From Candidatus Wolfebacteria bacterium (GTDB lineage: Bacteria; Patescibacteriota; Minisyncoccia; UBA6257; UBA9933): a stretch of 64,000 bases of DNA. Positions 1-61,794 of the stretch are shown here, piece by piece. Each line of letters begins with the position of its first letter. Within the stretch, counting starts at the first letter, position 1. The stretch spans positions 3,579 through 67,578 of the forward strand of contig JACPIO010000025.1 of the NCBI GenBank assembly GCA_016188075.1, in the 5' to 3' direction. The notes under the pieces were generated by a model, which saw only the letters and a program-made list of their open reading frames with translations, had not been told where the DNA came from and searched no databases. A program made the position numbers and the translations under genes.

Positions 1-73
1 TTTTATCAATACCCCGATTGTAAACGTGGTAAATCTCTCCTTCGGTAAATTGAATGTTTCTCATATTCTCTAT

Positions 74-3200: not shown

Positions 3201-6200
3201 TCGGCGGCAGTTGGACAGCTGTTTCCCCGACCAATTTAGCCGCAGGCGATACAAACAATAAAACCGTAAGTCCAGACACCTATACTCAATATACCGCCAC
3301 TTGGGACGCTAAAACCCAAATTCCCAATACCTATTATGCTACAGCTCAAGTAAGACAAACCGTGAATGACCACGAAGCTGCTAATAATACCGCGATTGCC
3401 ACGAGTTCCGCTTTTATCCTGGACACTAAAAATCCCTCCTCCACAATGACTCTAAACGGCGCCTCTTCCACTTTTACTTATACTCTAACAGATGATTCGA
3501 ATATCAGCTTTACGCTCTCGAACAACAGCAACCTGTCAGCTGACGGGTTGAACGCTTCGTCGGGAATTTTGCAAACTCTTTCTGTCACCTCAACTTCAGC
3601 CACTGTAAACTGGACTCTGGCCACTTCAAGCTATCCCACGGTTTATTTGAATGTGCGAGATATCTATGGCAACAATGTAACTGGCACCGCAGTGGCTCCC
3701 ACTCTTCCTTCTTCAATGGACATCAAAGACGTTTCCAATGTTACGACTAATTCATATTCCAACTTTATCTCCTGGGGAGTCTACAGCTCTGGAGCCAACG
3801 CCACTTTTTCCAATTATCGGGTGTTTCGGTCAACAAATGGCGGAAGCACTTATTCTCTTTTGACCACGATCACTGACGTGAACACCAATTATTACAGGGA
3901 CGCCTCTTTATCCTCTTCCACCACTTATTACTACAAAACCACGATTACGGATACGGACAACGACGTCTCCAGTTTTTCCTCGTCGGTCAATCACCAGCCC
4001 GTTGGTTCTGGCGGCACTGACCTTACTCCTCCAGCCATCACCAATGTTACGGTAACCTCAACTCAAGCCACCTGGGCCAGAATCACCTGGACCACGGATG
4101 AGTTGGCCACTCCGGAAATCAATTATTCGGCTTCTTCCACTGCTTACAATTTGACCGCGTCTACCACATCTTATTTAACTTCTCACGATATTACTCTTTC
4201 GGGTTTAACTCCCAATACGGTTTATTATTTCCGAGTGAGATCAACGGATATTGAAGGAAACCGAGGCACGAATGACAATGGGGGCTCCGGCTTTACCTTT
4301 ACCACCACAGGCGGCCCCATTATCTCGGATGTGACCACGGAATCTGTGACTGACAATTCCGCCACCATTATCTGGAATACCAATGTGGCGGCAAACTCCG
4401 CAGTTGTTTACGCTCAAAACATAACTGCTCTAAGAACCGGCGCTGGCATCTCGGAAGTTTCAAGCTCCAGCCCTGTGACCGGACCTCCGTATCAGCACCG
4501 AATCACGATTACTGGTTTAACTTCCAGAACCACCTATTACTACTATCCCAAAGTAACCGCTTCTTCGGATACCACGACCGACTCCAATTCCGGCAACTAT
4601 TATTCTTTCCGCACGGCTTACGACACCAAACCACCGGTGATCACCAATGTCACAACCACTGTTGTTACCAAAAACTCGGCTGTGATTACCTGGGTAACTG
4701 ACGAGTTATCTTCGAGTCAAGCTGACTATGGTTTAGCTGCCGGCTCCTATACCAATGCCACGACCATTGATTCCTTATTATCCATTACCCATTCCGCAAC
4801 TATTATTGGTCTTGCCCGAACCACCACTTATTATTTCCGAGTGAGATCAATTGACGCGGCTAACAATGAAGCCATCTCTCCGGAAGCTAATTTCCGCACC
4901 ACTGAAGCTGACACCATTATTATCTCAACAGGAGGCGCTGGCGGCGCTCCGCCTCCACCGCCCAGAGACACCACCCCGCCCAAGATCTCGGATATTCAAG
5001 CCGTAGATATTTCGGCTTTCGGAGCCACGGTGAAATTCGAAACAAACGAGTCGGCTCTCGCCATTATGGATTACGGCGAAACCAATATCTACGGCTTCGC
5101 GGCCGCGAGTCGCGACTTTCTGACCGGTCACGCCATTAAGCTCTCCGGCTTAAAACTCGGCACCGATTATCACTTTAAGATAAAGGCGATTGACAAAGAT
5201 AATAATTCGGCGACATCAGAAGATAATACTTTTCGGACGAAATTTTTCGCTGAATCCGTGGCCGAATTAAAAACAGTGGAGAACGCGTATCAGTTTCAGC
5301 AGGAAGTCGAAGAATCAATTGAATCAATCTTGCCGAGCATCATCCCGCCCTTTATCGAGAAGCCGAGAGTGGTTGACATTGCCGAAAATTCGGCGACCGT
5401 GCTTTGGAAAACTAATGTAAAAGCTTTCTCGGTCGTTGCTTACGCGCCGGAAGATGAATACGAAAAAGATCCGGTGAAACCCTACACCGCCGAGGCGGCT
5501 AATATCGAACGCAAAGTTCAAGAACATGAAGTGAAGCTCGCTGGTCTCAAGTCCAACACCCTTTATCACTATCAGGCTAAAGCTTTTAGTCTGCCTCAAG
5601 CTCTAAGCAAAACACCGGATTCGACTTTCCTTACGAAAACAGCCAAGACCCAGCCGCGAGTAGCTGATGTTGATAAAGACGCGATTCGAATCGTCTGGCG
5701 AACAGACGAGACGGCCAGTTCCATTGTGGAATACAAAAATTTGCGGACCGGGGAAATTAATCGGAAGATTAACGAAGAGAAAGTGAGCGATCACGACGCG
5801 CGGATTGAAAATTTATCTCCGGATACCACGTATCAAATCAGCGTTTCCGGCTATAATGTTAAAGATAATTTAATTGAAGGCGGCGAGCCCATTACTGTTA
5901 AAACCTCGAAGGACGTAACGCCGCCGGTGATCTCCTCGATTAAAATTGACAACGCCTTAGTGCCGGGCCGCACCGATCGCGTGCAAACCGTGGTCGGTTG
6001 GAAGACCAACGAGCCGGCGACATCCGTTGTTTTCTACGAAGAAGGAACCTCCGGGAAAAAGGGAACTGCCTTGGCGAATAAAATTGAAATTCCCAATCAG
6101 TTAGTGACGGACCACAATGTTATTTTAACCGAACTCCGGCCCGGAATACTTTACCGCGTTCAGTTGACATCCGTGGACGAAGCCGGCAATAAAATAACCT

Positions 6201-12637: not shown

Positions 12638-12660
12638 TAATTGGTAATTAGGATTAATTA
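12631..12660. repeat. 8-bp periodic AT-rich array (taattagtaattggtaattaggattaatta)
   Basis: related arrays at 59908-59970 and, reverse-complemented, at 23831-23855. Confidence 0.5.
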
Positions 12661-12712
12661 CTATGGCGCTTTCGTCTAGTGGTCAAGTCCCGATGTAGTC
12701 AAAAATTTATGC

Positions 12713-12785
12713 GCCGCCATCGTCTAGTGGCCTAGGACACTAGGTTCTCATCCTAGAAACCGGGGTTCGATTCCCCGTGGCGGTA
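12713..12785 (+). tRNA. tRNA-Glu (anticodon CUC)
   Basis: cloverleaf: acceptor gccgcca/tggcggt, D-arm tcgtctagtggcctaggac, anticodon loop ttCTCat, T-arm cgggg-ttcgatt-ccccg; matches bacterial tRNA-Glu. Confidence 0.85.
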
Positions 12786-12845
12786 CATAAATTTTTGATA
12801 CTACATCGAGGATCCTCGATACGACATCAAAATTAAAATTTTGGT

Positions 12846-12905
12846 CGTATCGGGAGACATCACGTTCTCAACGTGGGGACCCGGGTTCAAATCCCGGTGA
12901 GAGCA
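12846..12905 (+). other. 5'-truncated tRNA-like sequence (D-arm onward, anticodon loop ttCTCaa, good T-arm and 3' acceptor tgagagc-a) lacking a matching 5' acceptor strand
   Basis: well-formed anticodon and T arms but nothing adjacent pairs with the 3' acceptor; a separate tRNA 5'-fragment-like sequence (gcgctttcgtctagtggtcaag) lies at 12665-12690. Confidence 0.4.
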
Positions 12906-13002
12906 CAAATTTTTATTACAGTTGATTTCCGTTTTTTATTTTGCTACTTTTAGGCAGGCGGTTTTGGCCGGATTTTTTAGTTTTTAATTTTGTGTTTCCA
13001 AT

Positions 13003-13170
13003 AGCGTCGCTTGCTCGCCGAGCCCCCATCCCGTGCGGCAACTCGTGGACCCAGCCGGAGCTCGGTCTCGCCGAAGGCGAGTCCGGCTGGGGAGCGGTAG
13101 GGACGGCGAGCCGCTGGAGCGAGCCGAGCCCGGTGCCGTCAGGGATGCGGGGCTCGGCGCCAGGCCCACT
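13003..13170 (+). ncRNA. GC-rich, highly structured ~170-nt element upstream of atpB (candidate small RNA or cis-regulatory leader)
   Basis: GC island in an AT-leaning region; long-range closing helix cgccgagcccccatccc / gggatgcggggctcggcg plus internal hairpins; ORFs here overlap on both strands and read as nonsense. Confidence 0.45.
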
Positions 13171-19532: not shown

Positions 19533-19555
19533 GGTGGTAGCTTTAAAGCTACCAC
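19533..19555. repeat. palindrome ggtggtagctttaaagctaccac (second copy at 43817-43834)
   Basis: the 18-bp core ggtagctttaaagctacc recurs at a distant locus. Confidence 0.6.
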
Positions 19556-20525: not shown

Positions 20526-20843
20526 ATGGGTTTTGCAATCATTCAAACTGGCGGGAAGCAATATAAAGTATCTCCGGGGCAAAAAATTAGAATAGAAAAA
20601 GTTGAACCTAACGAAGAGGGGAATTTTGTCTTTGATAAAGTTCTTTTGGTTGCGGAGCAAGACGGAGAGGTTAAAATCGGCACGCCGTATGTTTCGGGCG
20701 CGAAGGTCGAGGGAAAAGTTTTAAAACAGGGGAGAGATAAAAAGAAAATTATTTTCCGCTATCATTCGAAAACGCGCTATCGAAAAAAGAAAGGGCATAG
20801 GCAGCCGTTTACGGAAGTCCTGGTTGACAAAATTAAGGGTTAA
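20526..20843 (+). CDS. rplU: 50S ribosomal protein L21
   Basis: MGFAIIQTGGKQYKVSPGQKIRIEK. Confidence 0.9.
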   Translation: MGFAIIQTGGKQYKVSPGQKIRIEKVEPNEEGNFVFDKVLLVAEQDGEVKIGTPYVSGAKVEGKVLKQGRDKKKIIFRYHSKTRYRKKKGHRQPFTEVLVDKIKG

Positions 20844-20924
20844 AAGTAGAATTCCGGAAATAAGTTCGGAGGGTTTATTGGTTATCGAAGATCGAGAAAA
20901 GAATAGAATAATCTATCTTTTTCT

Positions 20925-21580
20925 TGCTCCTTGAGTAAGTTGTAAAGAGTGTGCCGCAAACATGCACCATAGGGGATCGCGCTGGCACGTCAGTCGCGAG
21001 AGGTTCGAATCCTCATGCATGGGGTTTGCTGTCTCGGTGTGGTGATCGTGGAAGGAGCCCATGCGTAAGGCGCTTTCGAAGGGGAAAGGTCTTTTTCCCT
21101 CGCTAGAGCCGGATTGGGTCTTTAAACCACGAAGTCTCACATCGTCCGTTCCCTCCGCTGTCCCAGGAAACTGGGGAGATTAGAGGGGTAATAAGACAGT
21201 AGGCCTGCGGCACGCTACTAAAATATCCGGCGCAATCAATGTGCCGAGAGAAGTCCGCGCCGAGGTGGGTCGGCCGCTCGCGATGCCAGCAGGAAGTAGT
21301 AGCGGCAGTCGCTGCGGTTGCGGCGCCCGATCGAGAGCTTCGCGCTCTCCGAGGCGTCGATACGGTCCCGCGCGCGGGCACGCAGGAGTGGACCACCTTG
21401 CCTTCCAAAAAGGTGAGGTGCCTGCAGGGGACTAGATACCCCCACCGGCCAACGACGACGGCCGTACCGCCACAAGGGCGGGTCGGGCTGGCGTCCGGGC
21501 TTCTTCCGGCGCCTCCCATGCGTCTCACAGCACACCAAGGCCTGATGGTAGTTCACCCATCAGGCCCACCTTTTTTAACA
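20925..21580 (+). ncRNA. ~650-nt GC-rich highly structured RNA of unknown class, ending in tandem intrinsic terminators
   Basis: sharp GC island; overlapping Arg/Ala-rich nonsense ORFs on both strands; T-loop-like GGTTCGAATCC at 21002-21012 followed by helix atgcatggg/cccatgcgt and TTTCGAAGGGG (permuted-tmRNA-like layout but no G3:U70); terminators at 21538-21576 and 21589-21612. Confidence 0.45.
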
Positions 21581-21781
21581 GTTGATTTGCCCCTCACGGG
21601 CGTTTTTTATTTTCGTTTAGATTTCGAGGTTGATTTTTCGATATCGTACCCCCACACCAAATGTGGATAATAATTTGGCGTTGGGCAGACTGGATTCAAA
21701 CTTTCTCAATTTAATGGGTTTATCAGGCAAATTTTAAATTTCTACTAAACCAATCCACATTTGGTGTGGGGGTAAAAGATT

Positions 21782-22375
21782 TTAAGAGCGGCGTTCGAGG
21801 GATTGGCTTAAGGTTTCCGGATCGGCGAACTCGATTTCGCCGCCGGTTGGTATCCCGCGGCCCAAGCGGCTGATTTTTTTCGCAAAACCCTGTAATTCTT
21901 TCACGACAATCGAGGCATTCAAGTCTCCGTAGGTCGTTGGATTAAAAGCCAAAATTATTTCTTCGACTTGGCCCTCTTTTTTAATCAAATGTTTTAAGTG
22001 ATTCAAGCGCAGTTTTTTGCCGCTGTCCAAATCTCCGCTTTTCGACAAATCTCCCAAAATCAAATAGAGGCCATTGAATTTTTTCGTCTTTTCTATCGAA
22101 ATTAAATTAGTTTCCTTCTCGACAATCATAATTAAGTTTTTATTCCGTTTGGGATCCCGGCAAATATCGCATATATTATCTTTGTTCTGATGCACAAAAA
22201 AGCACTGGGAGCAGGTTTTTAGATAGCGCAAATCCGAAACTGCCTGAGTGATTTCTTCTATTCTATTTCGGCCTTCGCCAATAAGTTTAAAAGCCAGTCG
22301 CGTTGCTTGGCGCACTCCGATTCCCGGCAGAGCCGAGAAAATCTCAATAAATTTTTTGATGGGCTGCGTTAGCAT
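21782..22375 (-). CDS. recR: recombination protein RecR
   Basis: 197 aa; C4 zinc finger CSQCFFV...CDIC; Toprim domain. Confidence 0.85.
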   Translation of the reverse strand: MLTQPIKKFIEIFSALPGIGVRQATRLAFKLIGEGRNRIEEITQAVSDLRYLKTCSQCFFVHQNKDNICDICRDPKRNKNLIMIVEKETNLISIEKTKKFNGLYLILGDLSKSGDLDSGKKLRLNHLKHLIKKEGQVEEIILAFNPTTYGDLNASIVVKELQGFAKKISRLGRGIPTGGEIEFADPETLSQSLERRS

Positions 22376-27009: not shown

Positions 27010-27840
27010 ATGGGTAGGAGGAATATCACAATTAAAGCTAACCAGCTTCGGGATTTGTATTTACGAAAAGAGTTCACGGCTGCCCAAATTGCAAACGTCC
27101 TTCAATGTACTGACGTTACTGTATTAAACAAACTTCATTATTATGGAATCAAAGTTAACCGGCCAGGTAGAAGAAATTTTAAATATAAAAAATTCCCATT
27201 TGACGGTAACTTATTAGAAAAATCCTACATGATGGGATTTCGTATGGGAGATTTAAATGTTTATCGACCAAAAAATAAGTTATCACGGATCTTTGTTGTT
27301 CGATGCCATACTACTTCTAAAGATCAATTAGGTGTTTTCCAAAAAATTTTCTTTAGGTATGGACATTCAACCGTTTCGGTTTCCCCTGATAATTCTTACC
27401 ACGTAAATTGCTATTTAGACCATTCCTTCATTTTTCTACTGGATAAAAGTAAAATTCCACAATGGATTGGGGAGGCTCCAAATCTCGGTTGGTCGTTTAT
27501 GGCGGGATACTGCGACGCCGAGGGTTCTTTTGGAATAGATCAAGGACGAGGAAGATTTAAAATTGATAGCTACGATTATTTTATTTTGAGGTGGATTAAA
27601 AAATTTTTAGATAAGAACCAAATAAAAAGTAAATTTAGATGTATATATAAACAAGGTAGTTTGCGTAAAGATGGGACGTTGTGGAATAATAATTTGTGGC
27701 GACTCAATATAAATACTGCATTATCGTTGGAGACATTCGTAAGATCTATTTTGCCTTTCTCGTTGCATAAAAAAAGAGTTAAAGATGCTAATAAAGTTTT
27801 AAGAAATATTAAAGTAAGAAGAGAAAATGGAACAATTTGA
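27010..27840 (+). CDS. LAGLIDADG-family homing-endonuclease-like protein with N-terminal HTH; AT-rich
   Basis: FMAGYCDAEGSFG (LAGxxDxEG) plus degenerate first motif MMGFRMGDLNV; ATG 27010 preceded by tataat (track ORF starts at TTG 26959); overlaps the lepA start. Confidence 0.5.
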   Translation: MGRRNITIKANQLRDLYLRKEFTAAQIANVLQCTDVTVLNKLHYYGIKVNRPGRRNFKYKKFPFDGNLLEKSYMMGFRMGDLNVYRPKNKLSRIFVVRCHTTSKDQLGVFQKIFFRYGHSTVSVSPDNSYHVNCYLDHSFIFLLDKSKIPQWIGEAPNLGWSFMAGYCDAEGSFGIDQGRGRFKIDSYDYFILRWIKKFLDKNQIKSKFRCIYKQGSLRKDGTLWNNNLWRLNINTALSLETFVRSILPFSLHKKRVKDANKVLRNIKVRRENGTI

Positions 27841-42833: not shown

Positions 42834-43622
42834 TTAGGCGGTCTTTCGTTCTGTTTCTGGAAATTCTACTGGAACCAAGGGTTGCGGTTTTACCATCTGC
42901 GTTACTCTTGGGACATTTCGTTTCTTTCTCCTCATTCCGTAGAAAGCCGCGATTGCGAGAATTATTCCGATGCCCACTGCCACTTGCGCCCAGATTCTTT
43001 TTCCTCCAATGGTGGAAGCGGTTTGGGCCAGCTCTTTTGAGTCTTCTTTCACTGCTGGAGTTTCCTCTATTGCTGAACTTTCGGCAACCAACGGATTCTC
43101 GCTTTCTACTTCTGCCATTGCTATTTCTTCTTGGATTGGTGCTATCGGTGCTCGCGAAACACTTGCCGGCGCTTTTGCCAATACGCTGCCCAAAGTATTT
43201 ATTTCAGCTGCCATTTGTGGCAACGAGGCGTTGATCGCAAGCAGCCTGCTTTTCATATTCGAAAGACCGGTAGCCAGAACTTCTTTGTTTTGAGCCAACC
43301 AGACAGGATTTTGAGCGTTTAATTCCGCCTGAAGAAGAGCGAGTTTCAACGTCTTGAGGCTTAGCTCTAACGTGAGCAAATCCTCCACGGTCATGGGAGC
43401 TCGCGGCGCTTCCGGCGCTTGAACTGCTTGAGGCGCGGTCACTTGGGCCTGTTGGGCTTTGAGCTGATTTACAACCTCTTTTAGCTGATTCAGTTTATCC
43501 TGAAGCGCTTGCGCCACTATTGGATCGATGTCAGACTCGGTTTGAGCTTGAACAGAATTTGTTCCCCAGCCGATCAAAACGATTCCCAGAAATACGGCTA
43601 AAATTAAGCTTGCTTTTTTCAT
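42834..43622 (-). CDS. secreted coiled-coil protein with C-terminal membrane anchor
   Basis: signal peptide MKKASLILAVFLGIV...; Gln/Ala-rich coiled coil; C-terminal TM + RRKKR; start taken at ATG 43622. Confidence 0.45.
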   Translation of the reverse strand: MKKASLILAVFLGIVLIGWGTNSVQAQTESDIDPIVAQALQDKLNQLKEVVNQLKAQQAQVTAPQAVQAPEAPRAPMTVEDLLTLELSLKTLKLALLQAELNAQNPVWLAQNKEVLATGLSNMKSRLLAINASLPQMAAEINTLGSVLAKAPASVSRAPIAPIQEEIAMAEVESENPLVAESSAIEETPAVKEDSKELAQTASTIGGKRIWAQVAVGIGIILAIAAFYGMRRKKRNVPRVTQMVKPQPLVPVEFPETERKTA

Positions 43623-43729: not shown

Positions 43730-43769
43730 GCAAGCCCCGTCACTCAATTAATTGAGTGACGGGGCTTGC
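43730..43769. repeat. perfect 18-bp-stem palindrome gcaagccccgtcactcaa-ttaa-ttgagtgacggggcttgc (likely terminator)
   Basis: exact inverted repeat; followed at 43817-43834 by the ggtagctttaaagctacc palindrome also seen at 19533. Confidence 0.6.
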
Positions 43770-43912
43770 GAAGCAATCTGCCTCGCGGTTTGCTGCGGGG
43801 CAGTTAATTTTGACATGGTAGCTTTAAAGCTACCGCTGGTCAGGGCGGGGAGGCAGGTGAAGCAGCTGATTTGGGACGAGGCGGTTGGTTTGAACCAACC
43901 GCTAATCGGAAA

Positions 43913-57498: not shown

Positions 57499-57867
57499 AT
57501 GTCGGTTCCGATCGCGACCCGACGGAAGTGGTCGAAGCAAATTAGAAAGGTGTTCCCGGGGTATGTGCCTCAATGGAATGATGGACGTTTCCTCTCGGTA
57601 ACGGCTTCATTGAGTCCGGAGGGGCTCGAAGAAAGGAGCGGATTGATGGGACGTGTTCGGGGCGACGAGTGGCGGGATGACGTGCCGTCGAAGAATTTCC
57701 GCGGGAAGCCGGTGAAGGCTCAATCGGCTCCCAAGGCGAAGACGGAATCAACCCCGCCACGGCAGGCCGAAGAACAGGCCGTCGCGGAGGTCGCGGAGGT
57801 TCTGGTCTCCGAGATCAGCCGCGGCGATCCGCGGCTACGTCCCCTCGCCAGTCTTCTCAAGCGTTGA
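57499..57867 (+). CDS. hypothetical basic protein on a GC-rich island
   Basis: strong RBS aggagaaaggagg 6 nt upstream; about 60% GC versus 45-50% locally; no recognisable domain. Confidence 0.4.
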   Translation: MSVPIATRRKWSKQIRKVFPGYVPQWNDGRFLSVTASLSPEGLEERSGLMGRVRGDEWRDDVPSKNFRGKPVKAQSAPKAKTESTPPRQAEEQAVAEVAEVLVSEISRGDPRLRPLASLLKR

Positions 57868-61669: not shown

Positions 61670-61794
61670 CCCTCCTTTTTTGCCCCCACACCAAACGAGA
61701 AGACACGCTTTCTCGTTATGGTGTGGGGGCTTGACAAATTTTTCAAGCTTCGTATAGAATAGGCTGTCGATAAAGAAAGGTCAAAGTTAAAGTA

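What the first reader, a model, noticed from the sequence alone, without database searches (positions are those of the whole stretch)
20925..21580. Large (~650 nt) GC-rich structured RNA of unknown class downstream of rplU
This is a sharp GC island with no credible ORF; the ORFs present overlap on both strands and are Arg/Ala-rich. It ends in two tandem intrinsic terminators on the plus strand. Near its 5' end it contains a T-loop-like GGTTCGAATCC (21002-21012). That is followed by a 7-bp helix (atgcatggg ... cccatgcgt) enclosing about 35 nt, and then TTTCGAAGGGG. This layout resembles a circularly permuted tmRNA, with T-arm, acceptor 3' strand, loop, acceptor 5' strand and a UUCGACGGG-like element in that order. 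However, the acceptor helix lacks the G3:U70 pair expected for alanylation, and I could not find a convincing tag ORF. It could be a divergent or permuted tmRNA, an intron-like RNA, or an undescribed large ncRNA.
Basis: partly seen in the sequence, partly recalled or inferred. Interest (0 to 1): 0.6.

Follow-up and report, generated by a model that had tools for sequence, protein, structure and literature searches.

The report
Unclassified structured RNA downstream of rplU

Summary
There is a 61% GC island (peak 70%) in a 44% GC window, with no credible gene, a near-consensus promoter and two plus-strand terminators.

The tmRNA reading fails.
- Rfam 15, which includes tmRNA_permuted, gives no match even at E<=10, and ARAGORN gives none.
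- The proposed acceptor helix has C3:G70 and no CCA.
- It has about zero ensemble probability, and one of its arms belongs to a different, covarying helix.
- The T-loop is replaced by a GAGA tetraloop in the closest homologue.

About 100 relatives have rplU and recR abutting (gap 2-115 nt in most); here the gap is 938 nt. The element is not a singleton. Four CPR lineages share a 17-bp hairpin just after rplU, followed by a GC-rich stretch (55-61% GC against 41-44% flanks) of about 200-640 nt. Window and L173 share an architecture: 21 of 21 checked pairs form in both, and 4 are compensatory.

The 5' 276 nt fold far better than background (z -5.3 to -5.9). The 3' 300 nt do not.

Most likely this is a lineage-restricted structured RNA, co-transcribed with rplU or self-promoted. 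Its function is unknown and the sample is small.

The parts
20824..20852 (+). Sigma-70-type promoter-like site, TTGACA-17-TAGAAT, overlapping the last codons of rplU. The inferred transcription start is near 20859-20860.
   Evidence: It matches 11 of 12 consensus positions. It is one of only four sites with >=11/12 on both strands of the 64-kb window, and two of the other three lie in intergenic regions upstream of genes. It is not conserved in the homologous loci (my reading of the sequences), so its function is inferred.
20885..20934 (+). H0: a conserved 17-bp hairpin (arms 20885-20901 and 20918-20934). The family is recognised by this hairpin. An AU-rich linker follows at 20935-20945.
   Evidence: It aligns in four lineages (window, L173, L002, L169). 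94% of pair cells are paired, against 46-66% in slid registers, with one compensatory pair. Covariance model R1 scores these four at 64-74 bits; the next best plus-strand hit in 0.83 Mb of related loci scores 20 bits, and the best hit of any kind outside the four lineages 23 bits, on the minus strand. nhmmer profiles cross-hit only these lineages.
20946..21219 (+). Domain 1, a multi-branched fold.
- P1, closing helix: 20946-20957 / 21207-21219.
- P2: 20961-20966 / 21016-21021.
- Hairpin 20977-20999.
- T-loop hairpin 21000-21014 (GGTTCGAATCC at 21002-21012).
- Long branched arm 21022-21206, including a GAAA-tetraloop hairpin at 21158-21178.
   Evidence: MFE is -125 kcal/mol with z -5.9; the minus strand gives -98 and z -3.7. 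This is beyond the 1st percentile of the window background. P1 pairs have probability 0.97-1.0 and the T stem 0.95. L173 has the same layout: P1, a 61-nt two-hairpin branch and a long arm. P1 has 2 compensatory pairs and P2 has 2.
21226..21262 (+). Hairpin P5 (21226-21234 / 21240-21249) followed by a conserved purine-rich block, GCCGAGAGAAGUCCGCG.
   Evidence: CCGGCGCAA is identical in window and L173, and P5 pairs in both. The block reads GCCGAGAGAAGUCCGC in the window and GCCGAUAAAGUUCCGC in L173.
21250..21535 (+). Domain 2, the most GC-rich part (67-70% GC). It is predicted to be a string of GC-rich hairpins.
   Evidence: Composition. The fold is only z -2.9 on the plus strand and -1.5 on the minus strand, which is within the background range. 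Homology with L173 is partly alignable, but the L173 contig ends inside the element.
21539..21576 (+). Intrinsic terminator 1: a 10-bp stem (7 GC pairs) followed by CACCTTTTTT.
21588..21612 (+). Intrinsic terminator 2: a 5-bp stem followed by TTTTTTATTT.
   Evidence: The flanking motif ACAGTTGATTT...CGTTTTTTATTTT recurs at about 12919-12942.

Best explanation
The interval encodes a plus-strand non-coding structured RNA. It is the largest known member of a small, undescribed family found immediately 3' of rplU in a few Wolfebacteria-related (Patescibacteria/CPR) lineages.

Shown:
- The family signature is a conserved 17-bp hairpin (H0) right after the rplU stop, then an AU-rich linker, then a GC-rich body (55-61% GC against 41-44% flanks). 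Where the 3' end is in hand (window, L002, L169) the body ends in an intrinsic terminator just before the convergent recR.
- In the window and in L173 the body starts with a domain closed by helix P1 that carries a two-hairpin branch (P2) and a long arm, followed by hairpin P5 and a purine-rich block.
- These helices keep pairing through compensatory substitutions.

Inferred:
- The RNA is made by read-through from rplU. In this genome it is also made from its own promoter at 20824-20852.
- It may be released by cleavage in the AU-rich linker after H0.
- It accumulates as a stable, protein- or ribosome-associated RNA, or as a structured 3' UTR that stabilises the rplU mRNA and blocks collision with convergent recR transcription.

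I cannot decide between a trans-acting and a cis-acting role. The T-loop is a lineage-specific loop variant, plausibly a tertiary-contact loop. It is not evidence of tRNA or tmRNA function.
For: 1. Non-coding. No Pfam match, no homologue beyond itself for the two long ORFs searched (+143 aa, -141 aa) or for a 579-aa concatenation of segments from five reading frames, which includes the -106 aa ORF. No codon periodicity. The +143 aa ORF reads through the terminators.

2. Transcription-unit anatomy on the plus strand. The promoter matches 11 of 12 positions and is one of four such sites in 128 kb. There are two terminators.

3. Fold.
- Whole region z -6.85 on the plus strand against -4.0 on the minus strand.
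- Domain 1 z -5.3 to -5.9 with a 27 kcal/mol strand asymmetry, outside the 1st percentile of 200 background windows.
- P1 pairing probability is about 1.

4. Homologues.
- H0 is shared by four lineages.
- nhmmer profile cross-hits occur only among those four.
- L002 and L169 are homologous across the whole element (E 1e-8 to 1e-9).
- Window and L173 are collinear with z 3.6, and 0 of 200 shuffles reach the observed score.

5. Covariation. In P1, P2 and P5, 21 of 21 pairs form in both window and L173, and 4 show double (compensatory) changes. Slid registers give 2-10 paired in the window (1-7 in both sequences) and 0-1 compensatory.

6. GC is elevated by 11-18 points over the flanks in all four lineages, although the primary sequence has diverged almost completely. 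This argues for selection on structure, or for repeated acquisition.

7. The sequence continuity is reproduced by three independent Logan assemblies, which are 100% identical from rplU through the terminators.
Against: - Only four lineages are known, in effect two pairs. Covariation rests on two sequences and on helices I aligned by hand, because MAFFT misaligned them.
- Single-sequence nhmmer does not link window and L173.
- The long forms (window, L173) and short forms (L002, L169) share only H0 detectably.
- The element is absent from about 100 relatives, including L164-166, the sister of L002/L169, and from the window's nearest rplU relatives. Such a patchy distribution fits an accessory or selfish element as well as a functional RNA.
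- The same intergenic spot holds unrelated insertions in other relatives.
- Domain 2 is not more structured than background, and 70% GC exceeds even this genome's tRNAs (56-59% GC).
- The promoter is not conserved in the homologues.
- No expression data were available.
Confidence: 0.55

Rival explanations
1. Non-functional, recently acquired or decaying DNA. This would be a foreign GC-rich fragment or a dead non-autonomous mobile element, inserted into an rplU-recR intergenic spot that tolerates insertions. It folds well only because it is GC-rich, and the promoter and terminators are incidental or belong to rplU.
For: - The distribution is patchy, and the element is absent from sister lineages.
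- The same site carries unrelated long inverted repeats and small ORFs in other relatives.
- Domain 2 has an ordinary z-score.
- Body size and sequence vary greatly.
- There is strain-level rearrangement immediately 3' of the terminators.
Against: - There are no terminal inverted repeats or target duplications.
- There is no second copy in the 64-kb window.
- Nothing similar was found in phage, plasmid or viral collections.
- No frame shows protein homology.
- Neutral DNA in a 41-44% GC genome should lose its GC excess, yet all four diverged lineages keep 55-61%.
- Window and L173 show compensatory changes in P1 and P2.
- Domain 1 has a strongly strand-asymmetric, outlier fold.
- CPR genomes are streamlined (my own knowledge), so a neutral 0.9-kb spacer would be unusual.
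Confidence: 0.27
2. A divergent or circularly permuted tmRNA. The T-arm and acceptor 3' strand would lie upstream of the acceptor 5' strand and a UUCGACGGG-like element.
For: - A canonical T-loop 11-mer is at 21002-21012.
- There is 9-bp complementarity between 21015-23 and 21058-66.
- UUUCGAAGGGG is in the window, and UACGACGGG lies at the aligned place in L173.
Against: - No tmRNA-family match at E<=10, although RF04321 tmRNA_permuted is in the library.
- ARAGORN is negative.
- The acceptor has C3:G70 instead of G3:U70, with no CCA and no tag ORF.
- The helix has probability of about 0, and its arm is used by the covarying P2.
- The T-loop is replaced by a GAGA tetraloop in L173, and L173 has no downstream partner for the equivalent strand.
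- The short-form relatives lack this domain altogether.
Confidence: 0.02
3. A highly divergent member of another known class that Rfam models miss. Candidates are a CPR-type RNase P RNA with large helix insertions, or an IA-type group I intron.
For: - CPR RNase P RNAs are often missed at default thresholds and carry large extensions (PMC8172020).
- Some Patescibacteria group I introns escape RF00028 (PMC13011429).
- The conserved block GAGAAGUCCGCG after a hairpin resembles the RNase P P4 5' strand (GGAAAGUCCGG). It can pair with CGGGCUUCUU at 21497-21506. This is my own inspection of the sequence.
Against: - No RNase P, group I or group II match at E<=10 in the window element or in the homologues.
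- The near-universal ACAGAA element before the P4 3' strand, and the J11/12 and P15 signatures, are absent (read; the consensus is from my own knowledge).
- The short forms, at about 210 nt, are too small to be RNase P.
- No host gene is interrupted: rplU and recR are both full length.
- The element is absent from most relatives at this locus.
Confidence: 0.05
4. One of the long ORFs (+143 aa, -141 aa or -106 aa), or the 40-aa ORF at 21061 with an AAGGAG 3 nt upstream, is a real orphan protein gene.
For: - The ORFs exist.
- Gene callers did call the +136 aa and -138 aa versions in public assemblies.
- A Shine-Dalgarno-like AAGGAG precedes the ATG at 21061.
Against: - No homologues beyond self-matches and low-complexity hits, and no Pfam match.
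- No codon periodicity.
- Overlapping open frames on both strands are expected in 70% GC DNA.
- The +143 aa ORF crosses both terminators.
- The ORFs are not preserved in L173, L002 or L169, whose bodies differ in length and frame.
Confidence: 0.03

Closest known systems
Large bacterial ncRNAs found as GC-rich long intergenic regions (OLE, GOLLD, ROOL, raiA, HEARO; the GC-IGR discovery approach, PMC8632094)
   Same: It is a long (>400 nt) non-coding transcript. It is markedly more GC-rich than its AT-rich host genome, multi-branched, and includes GNRA and T-loop type hairpin loops. Its distribution is lineage-restricted.
   Different: No sequence or structure match to any of these families at E<=10. 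Sequence conservation among members is much poorer and size varies much more (about 210 to 700 nt). Only four lineages are known, and it always sits at one locus.
tmRNA, including two-piece/permuted forms (RF00023, RF01849-51, RF04321)
   Same: It has a T-loop hairpin with the canonical GGUUCGAAUCC sequence, and a UUCGA(A/C)GGG-like string some 60 nt downstream.
   Different: There is no G3:U70, no CCA, no tag frame, and no CM or ARAGORN match. The T-loop is not conserved in the homologue, and the proposed acceptor helix is contradicted by covariation.
3'-UTR-embedded or 3'-UTR-derived bacterial RNAs and REP/BIME-type structured 3' elements between convergent genes
   Same: It lies directly 3' of a highly expressed gene and between convergent genes. 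It is GC-rich and hairpin-rich, ends in a terminator, and its presence varies among relatives.
   Different: It is far larger than typical 3'-UTR sRNAs. It is not repetitive: there are no tandem or dispersed copies. It has its own strong promoter in this genome, and a closed multi-branch domain rather than an array of similar palindromes.
Bacterial RNase P RNA (divergent CPR forms, PMC8172020)
   Same: Comparable size. A GC-rich hairpin is followed by a purine-rich AAGUCCG block that can form a long-range helix.
   Different: There is no CM match, and the conserved ACAGAA / CR-II-III elements are lacking. The short family members are too small.

Membership tests
tmRNA (one-piece or permuted) | Match to tmRNA covariance models or ARAGORN tmRNA detection | tested here: not met
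   No tmRNA, alpha/beta/cyano or tmRNA_permuted hit at E<=10. The model is in the library. ARAGORN default gives none, and its low-threshold calls are nonsensical.
tmRNA (one-piece or permuted) | Acceptor stem with a G3:U70 identity pair, discriminator A and 3' CCA | tested here: not met
   The proposed helix 21058-64 / 21017-23 has C3:G70 and is followed by GUUU. Its pairing probability is about 0.
tmRNA (one-piece or permuted) | tRNA-like domain (T-arm) conserved among homologues | tested here: not met
   The window T-loop hairpin at 21000-21014 aligns with a GAGA-tetraloop hairpin in L173. It is absent from L002 and L169.
tmRNA (one-piece or permuted) | Tag reading frame with a resume codon, ending in a hydrophobic ...AA stop | tested here: not met
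   The six-frame translation shows no such frame. The only ARAGORN tags come at 60-70% thresholds and lie partly outside the element.
tmRNA (one-piece or permuted) | SmpB partner and absence of another ssrA in the genome | not testable with these tools
   Only 64 kb of the genome is available.
tRNA / tRNA pseudogene | Cloverleaf recognised by ARAGORN or RF00005 | tested here: not met
   No RF00005 hit at E<=10. At an 80% threshold ARAGORN uses the T-loop hairpin as an anticodon arm.
RNase P RNA | CM match, plus conserved regions CR-I to CR-V with P4 | tested here: not met
   No RNase P family at E<=10 in the window or the homologues. Only a CR-I-like AAGUCCG block is present. ACAGAA...GGCUUA is absent (read).
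Group I / group II intron | CM match to the catalytic core, and interruption of a host gene | tested here: not met
   No Intron_gpI, Intron_gpII or D1D4 hit at E<=10. rplU and recR are intact. Caveat: RF00028 misses some Patescibacteria IA introns (PMC13011429).
Known large ncRNAs (OLE, GOLLD, ROOL, HEARO, raiA, 6S, SRP) | Match to the Rfam family model | tested here: not met
   None at the gathering threshold or at E<=10.
MITE / REP-type mobile repeat | Multiple copies; terminal inverted repeats or target-site duplication | tested here: inconclusive
   There is no second copy in the 64 kb, no TIR or TSD, and no copies elsewhere in 1.3 Mb of related loci. The rest of the genome could not be searched.
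Proposed new family (rplU-3' GC-rich RNA) | H0 hairpin directly after the rplU stop, followed by a GC-rich body (terminator seen wherever the 3' end is in hand) | tested here: met
   Window, L173, L002/L171/L172 and L169 all show it. The L173 contig ends before its terminator.
Proposed new family (rplU-3' GC-rich RNA) | Conserved secondary structure supported by covariation | tested here: inconclusive
   There are 4 compensatory pairs in P1 and P2 and 21 of 21 pairs kept. This rests on two sequences and a manual alignment. H0 shuffles are not significant.

The most novel reading that the evidence does not exclude
This is the first-seen and largest member of a new class of large, ornate structured RNA specific to a subclade of Wolfebacteria-like CPR bacteria. 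It is genetically coupled to ribosomal protein L21 (rplU) and has a conserved processing or recognition hairpin and a three-way-junction core. Its function would be in translation or ribosome biology of these reduced symbionts.
Probability: 0.3. Interest if true: 0.65.

Novelty: categorically new. Interest (0 to 1): 0.45.

Why it matters
New large (>400 nt) bacterial ncRNA classes are rare, and the known ones have turned out to be ribozymes or elaborate ribonucleoprotein scaffolds. CPR bacteria have tiny, streamlined genomes in which 0.9 kb of non-coding DNA is conspicuous, and their RNA biology (divergent RNase P, frequent introns) is already unusual.

If this family is real, it gives a concrete, testable candidate for a CPR-specific RNA function linked to a ribosomal protein gene. 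It would also add a model to RNA family databases.

If instead it is selfish or junk DNA, it documents a fast-turnover insertion hotspot between rplU and recR.

In either case the tempting tmRNA annotation should not be made.

Tried and rejected
- **Rfam.** Gathering threshold on the window and E<=10 on the region, on L002 and on L173/L169/L171. Only hairpin-type miRNA noise on the neighbouring inverted repeat.
- **ARAGORN.** Default and relaxed settings, including tmRNA and mitochondrial modes. Only junk calls.
- **Protein homology.** The two long ORFs searched and a 579-aa concatenation of frames found only self-matches and low-complexity hits. No Pfam match.
- **blastn.** Distant mode against phages and plasmids gave only chance fragments.
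- **Viral-contig pattern scans.** Four patterns. Three gave nothing.
- **Synteny.**
  - rplU loci from species-representative genomes and recR loci from metagenomes showed that most relatives lack any insert.
  - Single-sequence BLAST and nhmmer of the window element found nothing.
  - Homologues were found only by walking rplU relatives with the look-up of encoding contigs.
- **Automatic alignment.** MAFFT/RNAalifold alignment of window against L173 misaligned the helices and was discarded.
- **Other hypotheses considered and rejected.**
  - Group IIC intron inserted after a terminator hairpin. GUGUG at 20949 is not conserved in L173, and there is no domain V.
  - Integron or attC-like cassette. 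Only one hairpin is present.
  - REP/BIME array. There are no repeated units.
  - Y-RNA/Rsr module. No TROVE-domain gene among the ten proteins scanned, which include all the large ORFs except the ATP synthase subunits already assigned, and no YrlA hit.
  - Coding fragment from a high-GC genome. There is no GC3 periodicity.
- **A 35-nt similarity** between 21066-21100 and 35062-35096 (reverse orientation, E 0.014) is probably chance.
Full report
**Context.** The window is 44% GC. Its rplU protein is identical to one that NCBI names Candidatus Wolfebacteria bacterium (Patescibacteria/CPR); the next closest rplU in 5.8 billion clustered proteins is only 81% identical. rplU (20526-20843, plus strand) and recR (21782-22375, minus strand) are convergent. 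The 938 nt between them hold the finding, plus a separate perfect inverted repeat at 21647-21774.

**Checking the observation.**
- GC reaches 0.67-0.705 in 200-nt windows between 21200 and 21500.
- GGTTCGAATCC is at 21002-21012, the complementary arms are at 21011-21023 / 21058-21070, and TTTCGAAGGGG follows.
- Two plus-strand intrinsic terminators lie at 21539-21576 and 21588-21612.
- I also found a near-consensus promoter, TTGACA-17-TAGAAT, at 20824-20852. It is one of only four sites with >=11/12 matches on both strands of the window, and two of the other three sit upstream of genes.

The region is not coding.
- Three long ORFs overlap on both strands, as expected for 70% GC DNA. None has a Pfam match.
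- Searches of 5.8 billion clustered proteins and 1.84 billion cluster representatives returned only the same locus and low-complexity hits. A 579-aa concatenation of other reading-frame segments returned nothing.
- GC by codon phase is flat at 0.71/0.63/0.71.
- The +143 aa ORF runs through both terminators.

**Is the fold more than chance?** The plus strand of 20925-21620 folds at -313.6 kcal/mol (z -6.85). The minus strand folds at -283.8 (z -4.0).

I calibrated this against 200 background 276-nt windows from the same 64 kb, which gave mean z -0.76, sd 1.4 and a 1st percentile of -4.7.
- The 5' part (20945-21220, "domain 1") has z -5.3 to -5.9 and is 27 kcal/mol more stable on the plus strand than on the minus strand. 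It is a true outlier.
- The most GC-rich part (21221-21535, "domain 2") has z of only -2.7 to -2.9, which is ordinary.

In the ensemble for the inferred transcript 20860-21576:
- the closing helix P1 (20948-57 / 21207-16) has probability 0.97-1.0;
- the T-loop stem has probability 0.95;
- the MFE instead pairs 21016-21021 with 20961-20966.

**Known families.**
- Rfam 15 gives nothing in the interval at the gathering thresholds or at E<=10. That library includes tmRNA, the alpha/beta/cyano models and RF04321 tmRNA_permuted, which does give a weak hit on an ordinary tRNA T-arm elsewhere in the window.
- ARAGORN finds nothing at default settings. At 80% threshold it calls a "tRNA-Ser" that uses the T-loop hairpin as the anticodon arm, and at 60-70% it calls meaningless permuted tmRNAs.
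- The proposed acceptor stem has C3:G70, there is no CCA, and no tag frame appears in the six-frame translation.
- RNase P, group I/II introns, 6S, SRP, OLE, GOLLD, ROOL, HEARO and raiA are all negative.
- A purine-rich block, GAGAAGUCCGCG, resembles the RNase P P4 strand. The other universal RNase P elements are missing.

**Comparative genomics.** I fetched 80 rplU loci from species-representative genomes and 80 recR loci from metagenomes. The convergent rplU/recR arrangement is conserved in about 100 of them, with a gap of 2-115 nt in most. The window's nearest rplU relatives (80-81% identity) also lack any insert. Other relatives carry unrelated things at this spot, namely long perfect inverted repeats or small ORFs, so it is a permissive site.

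BLAST and nhmmer with the window element found no homologue. Phage, plasmid and viral collections gave nothing.

Walking the rplU relatives showed that the element is not a singleton.
- L002 (identical in L171 and L172), L169 and L173 all have the same hairpin, H0, immediately after the rplU stop. In the window its arms are 20885-20901 and 20918-20934.
- H0 is followed by an AU-rich linker and a GC-rich stretch (55-61% GC against 41-44% flanks). The stretch is about 200 nt in L002 and L169 and at least 370 nt in L173, whose contig ends inside it.
- H0 pairs in 94% of cells across the four lineages, against 46-66% in slid registers, with one compensatory pair.
- A covariance model of H0 scores the four at 64-74 bits. 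The best hit outside the four lineages in 0.83 Mb of related loci scores 23 bits (minus strand), and 80 viral loci gave nothing significant.
- nhmmer profiles cross-hit only these lineages.
- L002 and L169 are homologous across the whole element (E 1e-8 to 1e-9). They share a stem, AUCCCGYGUAGG...CCGUAGAUGCGGGA, that encloses a hairpin of variable size.
- L164-166, whose rplU is 88% identical to those of L002 and L169, lack the element.

**Window versus L173.** After H0 the two are weakly but significantly collinear: the semi-global score has z 3.6, and 0 of 200 dinucleotide shuffles reach it. Shared blocks include:
- AAGAGUGUGCCGCAA / AAGAAUCUGUCGCAA;
- UAGGGG;
- GCGAGAG;
- CCGGCGCAA;
- GCCGAGAGAAGUCCGC / GCCGAUAAAGUUCCGC.

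Independent MFE folds give the same architecture in both: a closing helix P1, then a 61-nt branch with basal helix P2 and two hairpins, then a long arm, then hairpin P5.

| Helix | Window | L173 | Outcome |
|---|---|---|---|
| P1 | UGUGCCGCA / UGCGGCACG | UCUGUCGCA / UGCGACAGA | two double substitutions, pairing kept |
| P2 | CAUGCA / UGCAUG | CAAGCU / GGCUUG | two double substitutions, pairing kept |

Over P1, P2 and P5, 21 of 21 pairs form in both sequences, with 4 compensatory. Slid registers give 2-10 paired in the window (1-7 in both sequences) and 0-1 compensatory.

The window's T-loop hairpin corresponds to a GAGA-tetraloop hairpin in L173, so the tRNA-like feature is not conserved. No Rfam family matches the homologues either.

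**Limits.**
- The covariation comes from two sequences aligned by hand. MAFFT/RNAalifold misaligned them.
- Long and short forms share only H0 detectably.
- The distribution is patchy.
- Domain 2 has no fold signal beyond composition.
- The promoter is not conserved in the homologues.
- There are no expression data.

A selfish or decaying insertion therefore remains a serious rival. Several points argue against it: the GC excess has been maintained in four diverged lineages, compensatory changes are present, there are no repeats, TIRs or TSDs, and domain 1's fold is strand-asymmetric.

Assembly error is unlikely. Three Logan assemblies from sibling samples are 100% identical from rplU through the terminators. 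All three end or diverge from the window exactly at 21647/8, where the inverted repeat starts, and the two that continue share the same alternative 58-nt flank. This indicates strain-level variation 3' of the element, not within it.

**Verdict.** The broad reading, a large GC-rich structured RNA of unknown class, is supported and now has homologues. The tmRNA reading is rejected.

The most likely account (confidence about 0.55) is a lineage-restricted structured RNA family encoded at the 3' end of rplU. It would be transcribed by read-through and, in this genome, also from its own promoter, and it ends at tandem terminators. Whether it acts in cis (stabilising the mRNA, insulating it from recR transcription) or in trans is inference. 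The function is unknown.

Noticed in passing
window 21647-21774 (also 61681-61728): A perfect 22-bp inverted repeat (TACCCCCACACCAAATGTGGAT...) with an 84-nt loop lies between the terminators and the recR stop. Three Logan contigs from sibling samples are identical to the window up to 21647/8 and then end or switch to a different shared 58-nt flank. This looks like a strain-variable MITE-like insertion. A shorter palindrome with the same CCCCCACACCA arms lies at 61681-61728.
   Followed up: partly
window 12990-13170: A second GC-rich island (65-68% GC) lies between a tRNA cluster and the atp operon. It forms a long hairpin-like fold (z -4.3 plus strand, -6.4 minus strand) and has no Rfam match even at E<=5.
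   Followed up: partly
window 12650-12905: tRNA-Glu(CUC) is flanked by 20-nt inverted repeats. About 55 nt downstream is a partial tRNA-like sequence (RF00005 31.8 bits, model positions 8-63 only) with the same UUCUCA anticodon loop. Upstream at about 12662-12690 is a tRNA 5'-half-like stretch. This may be a split, intron-bearing or pseudo-tRNA arrangement of the kind reported for Patescibacteria (PMC13011429).
   Followed up: no
window 27827-30196: The lepA homologue (789 aa) carries a PD-(D/E)XK nuclease domain (PF13366, residues 86-199) inserted inside its GTPase domain.
   Followed up: no
window 57499-57867: A third GC-rich stretch (61% GC) is an ORF of 122 aa with a good ribosome-binding site. 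It has no Pfam match and may be a horizontally acquired small gene.
   Followed up: no
window 19536-19553, 43818-43835 and 43730-43770: The palindrome GGTAGCTTTAAAGCTACC occurs in two intergenic regions. The 276-nt window starting at 43521 has the strongest fold z-score in the background scan (-6.9 plus strand, -5.5 minus strand), owing to a long perfect hairpin.
   Followed up: no
window 21578-21613 and 12919-12942: A shared motif, ACAGTTGATTT...CGTTTTTTATTTT, sits at two terminator-like sites. Only the first contains the GC hairpin.
   Followed up: no
window 21066-21100 versus 35062-35096 (reverse strand): There is a 35-nt similarity (80% identity, E 0.014) between the UUUCGAAGGGG hairpin of the element and the 3' end of a PilN-domain gene. 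The predicted RNA duplex is -43.7 kcal/mol. This is probably chance.
   Followed up: partly
L045, L027, L150, L062, L048, L055, L136, L118, L121, L042 (rplU-recR gaps): In other CPR relatives the same convergent intergenic spot holds unrelated inserts. These are long near-perfect inverted repeats, GC-rich hairpins, or small ORFs such as zinc-ribbon-like or membrane peptides. The site behaves as an insertion hotspot.
   Followed up: partly
L087 / L089 about 6060-6190 (minus strand): Two tandem tRNA-like T-arm plus acceptor segments are not called by ARAGORN. They may be intron-containing or degenerate tRNA genes.
   Followed up: no
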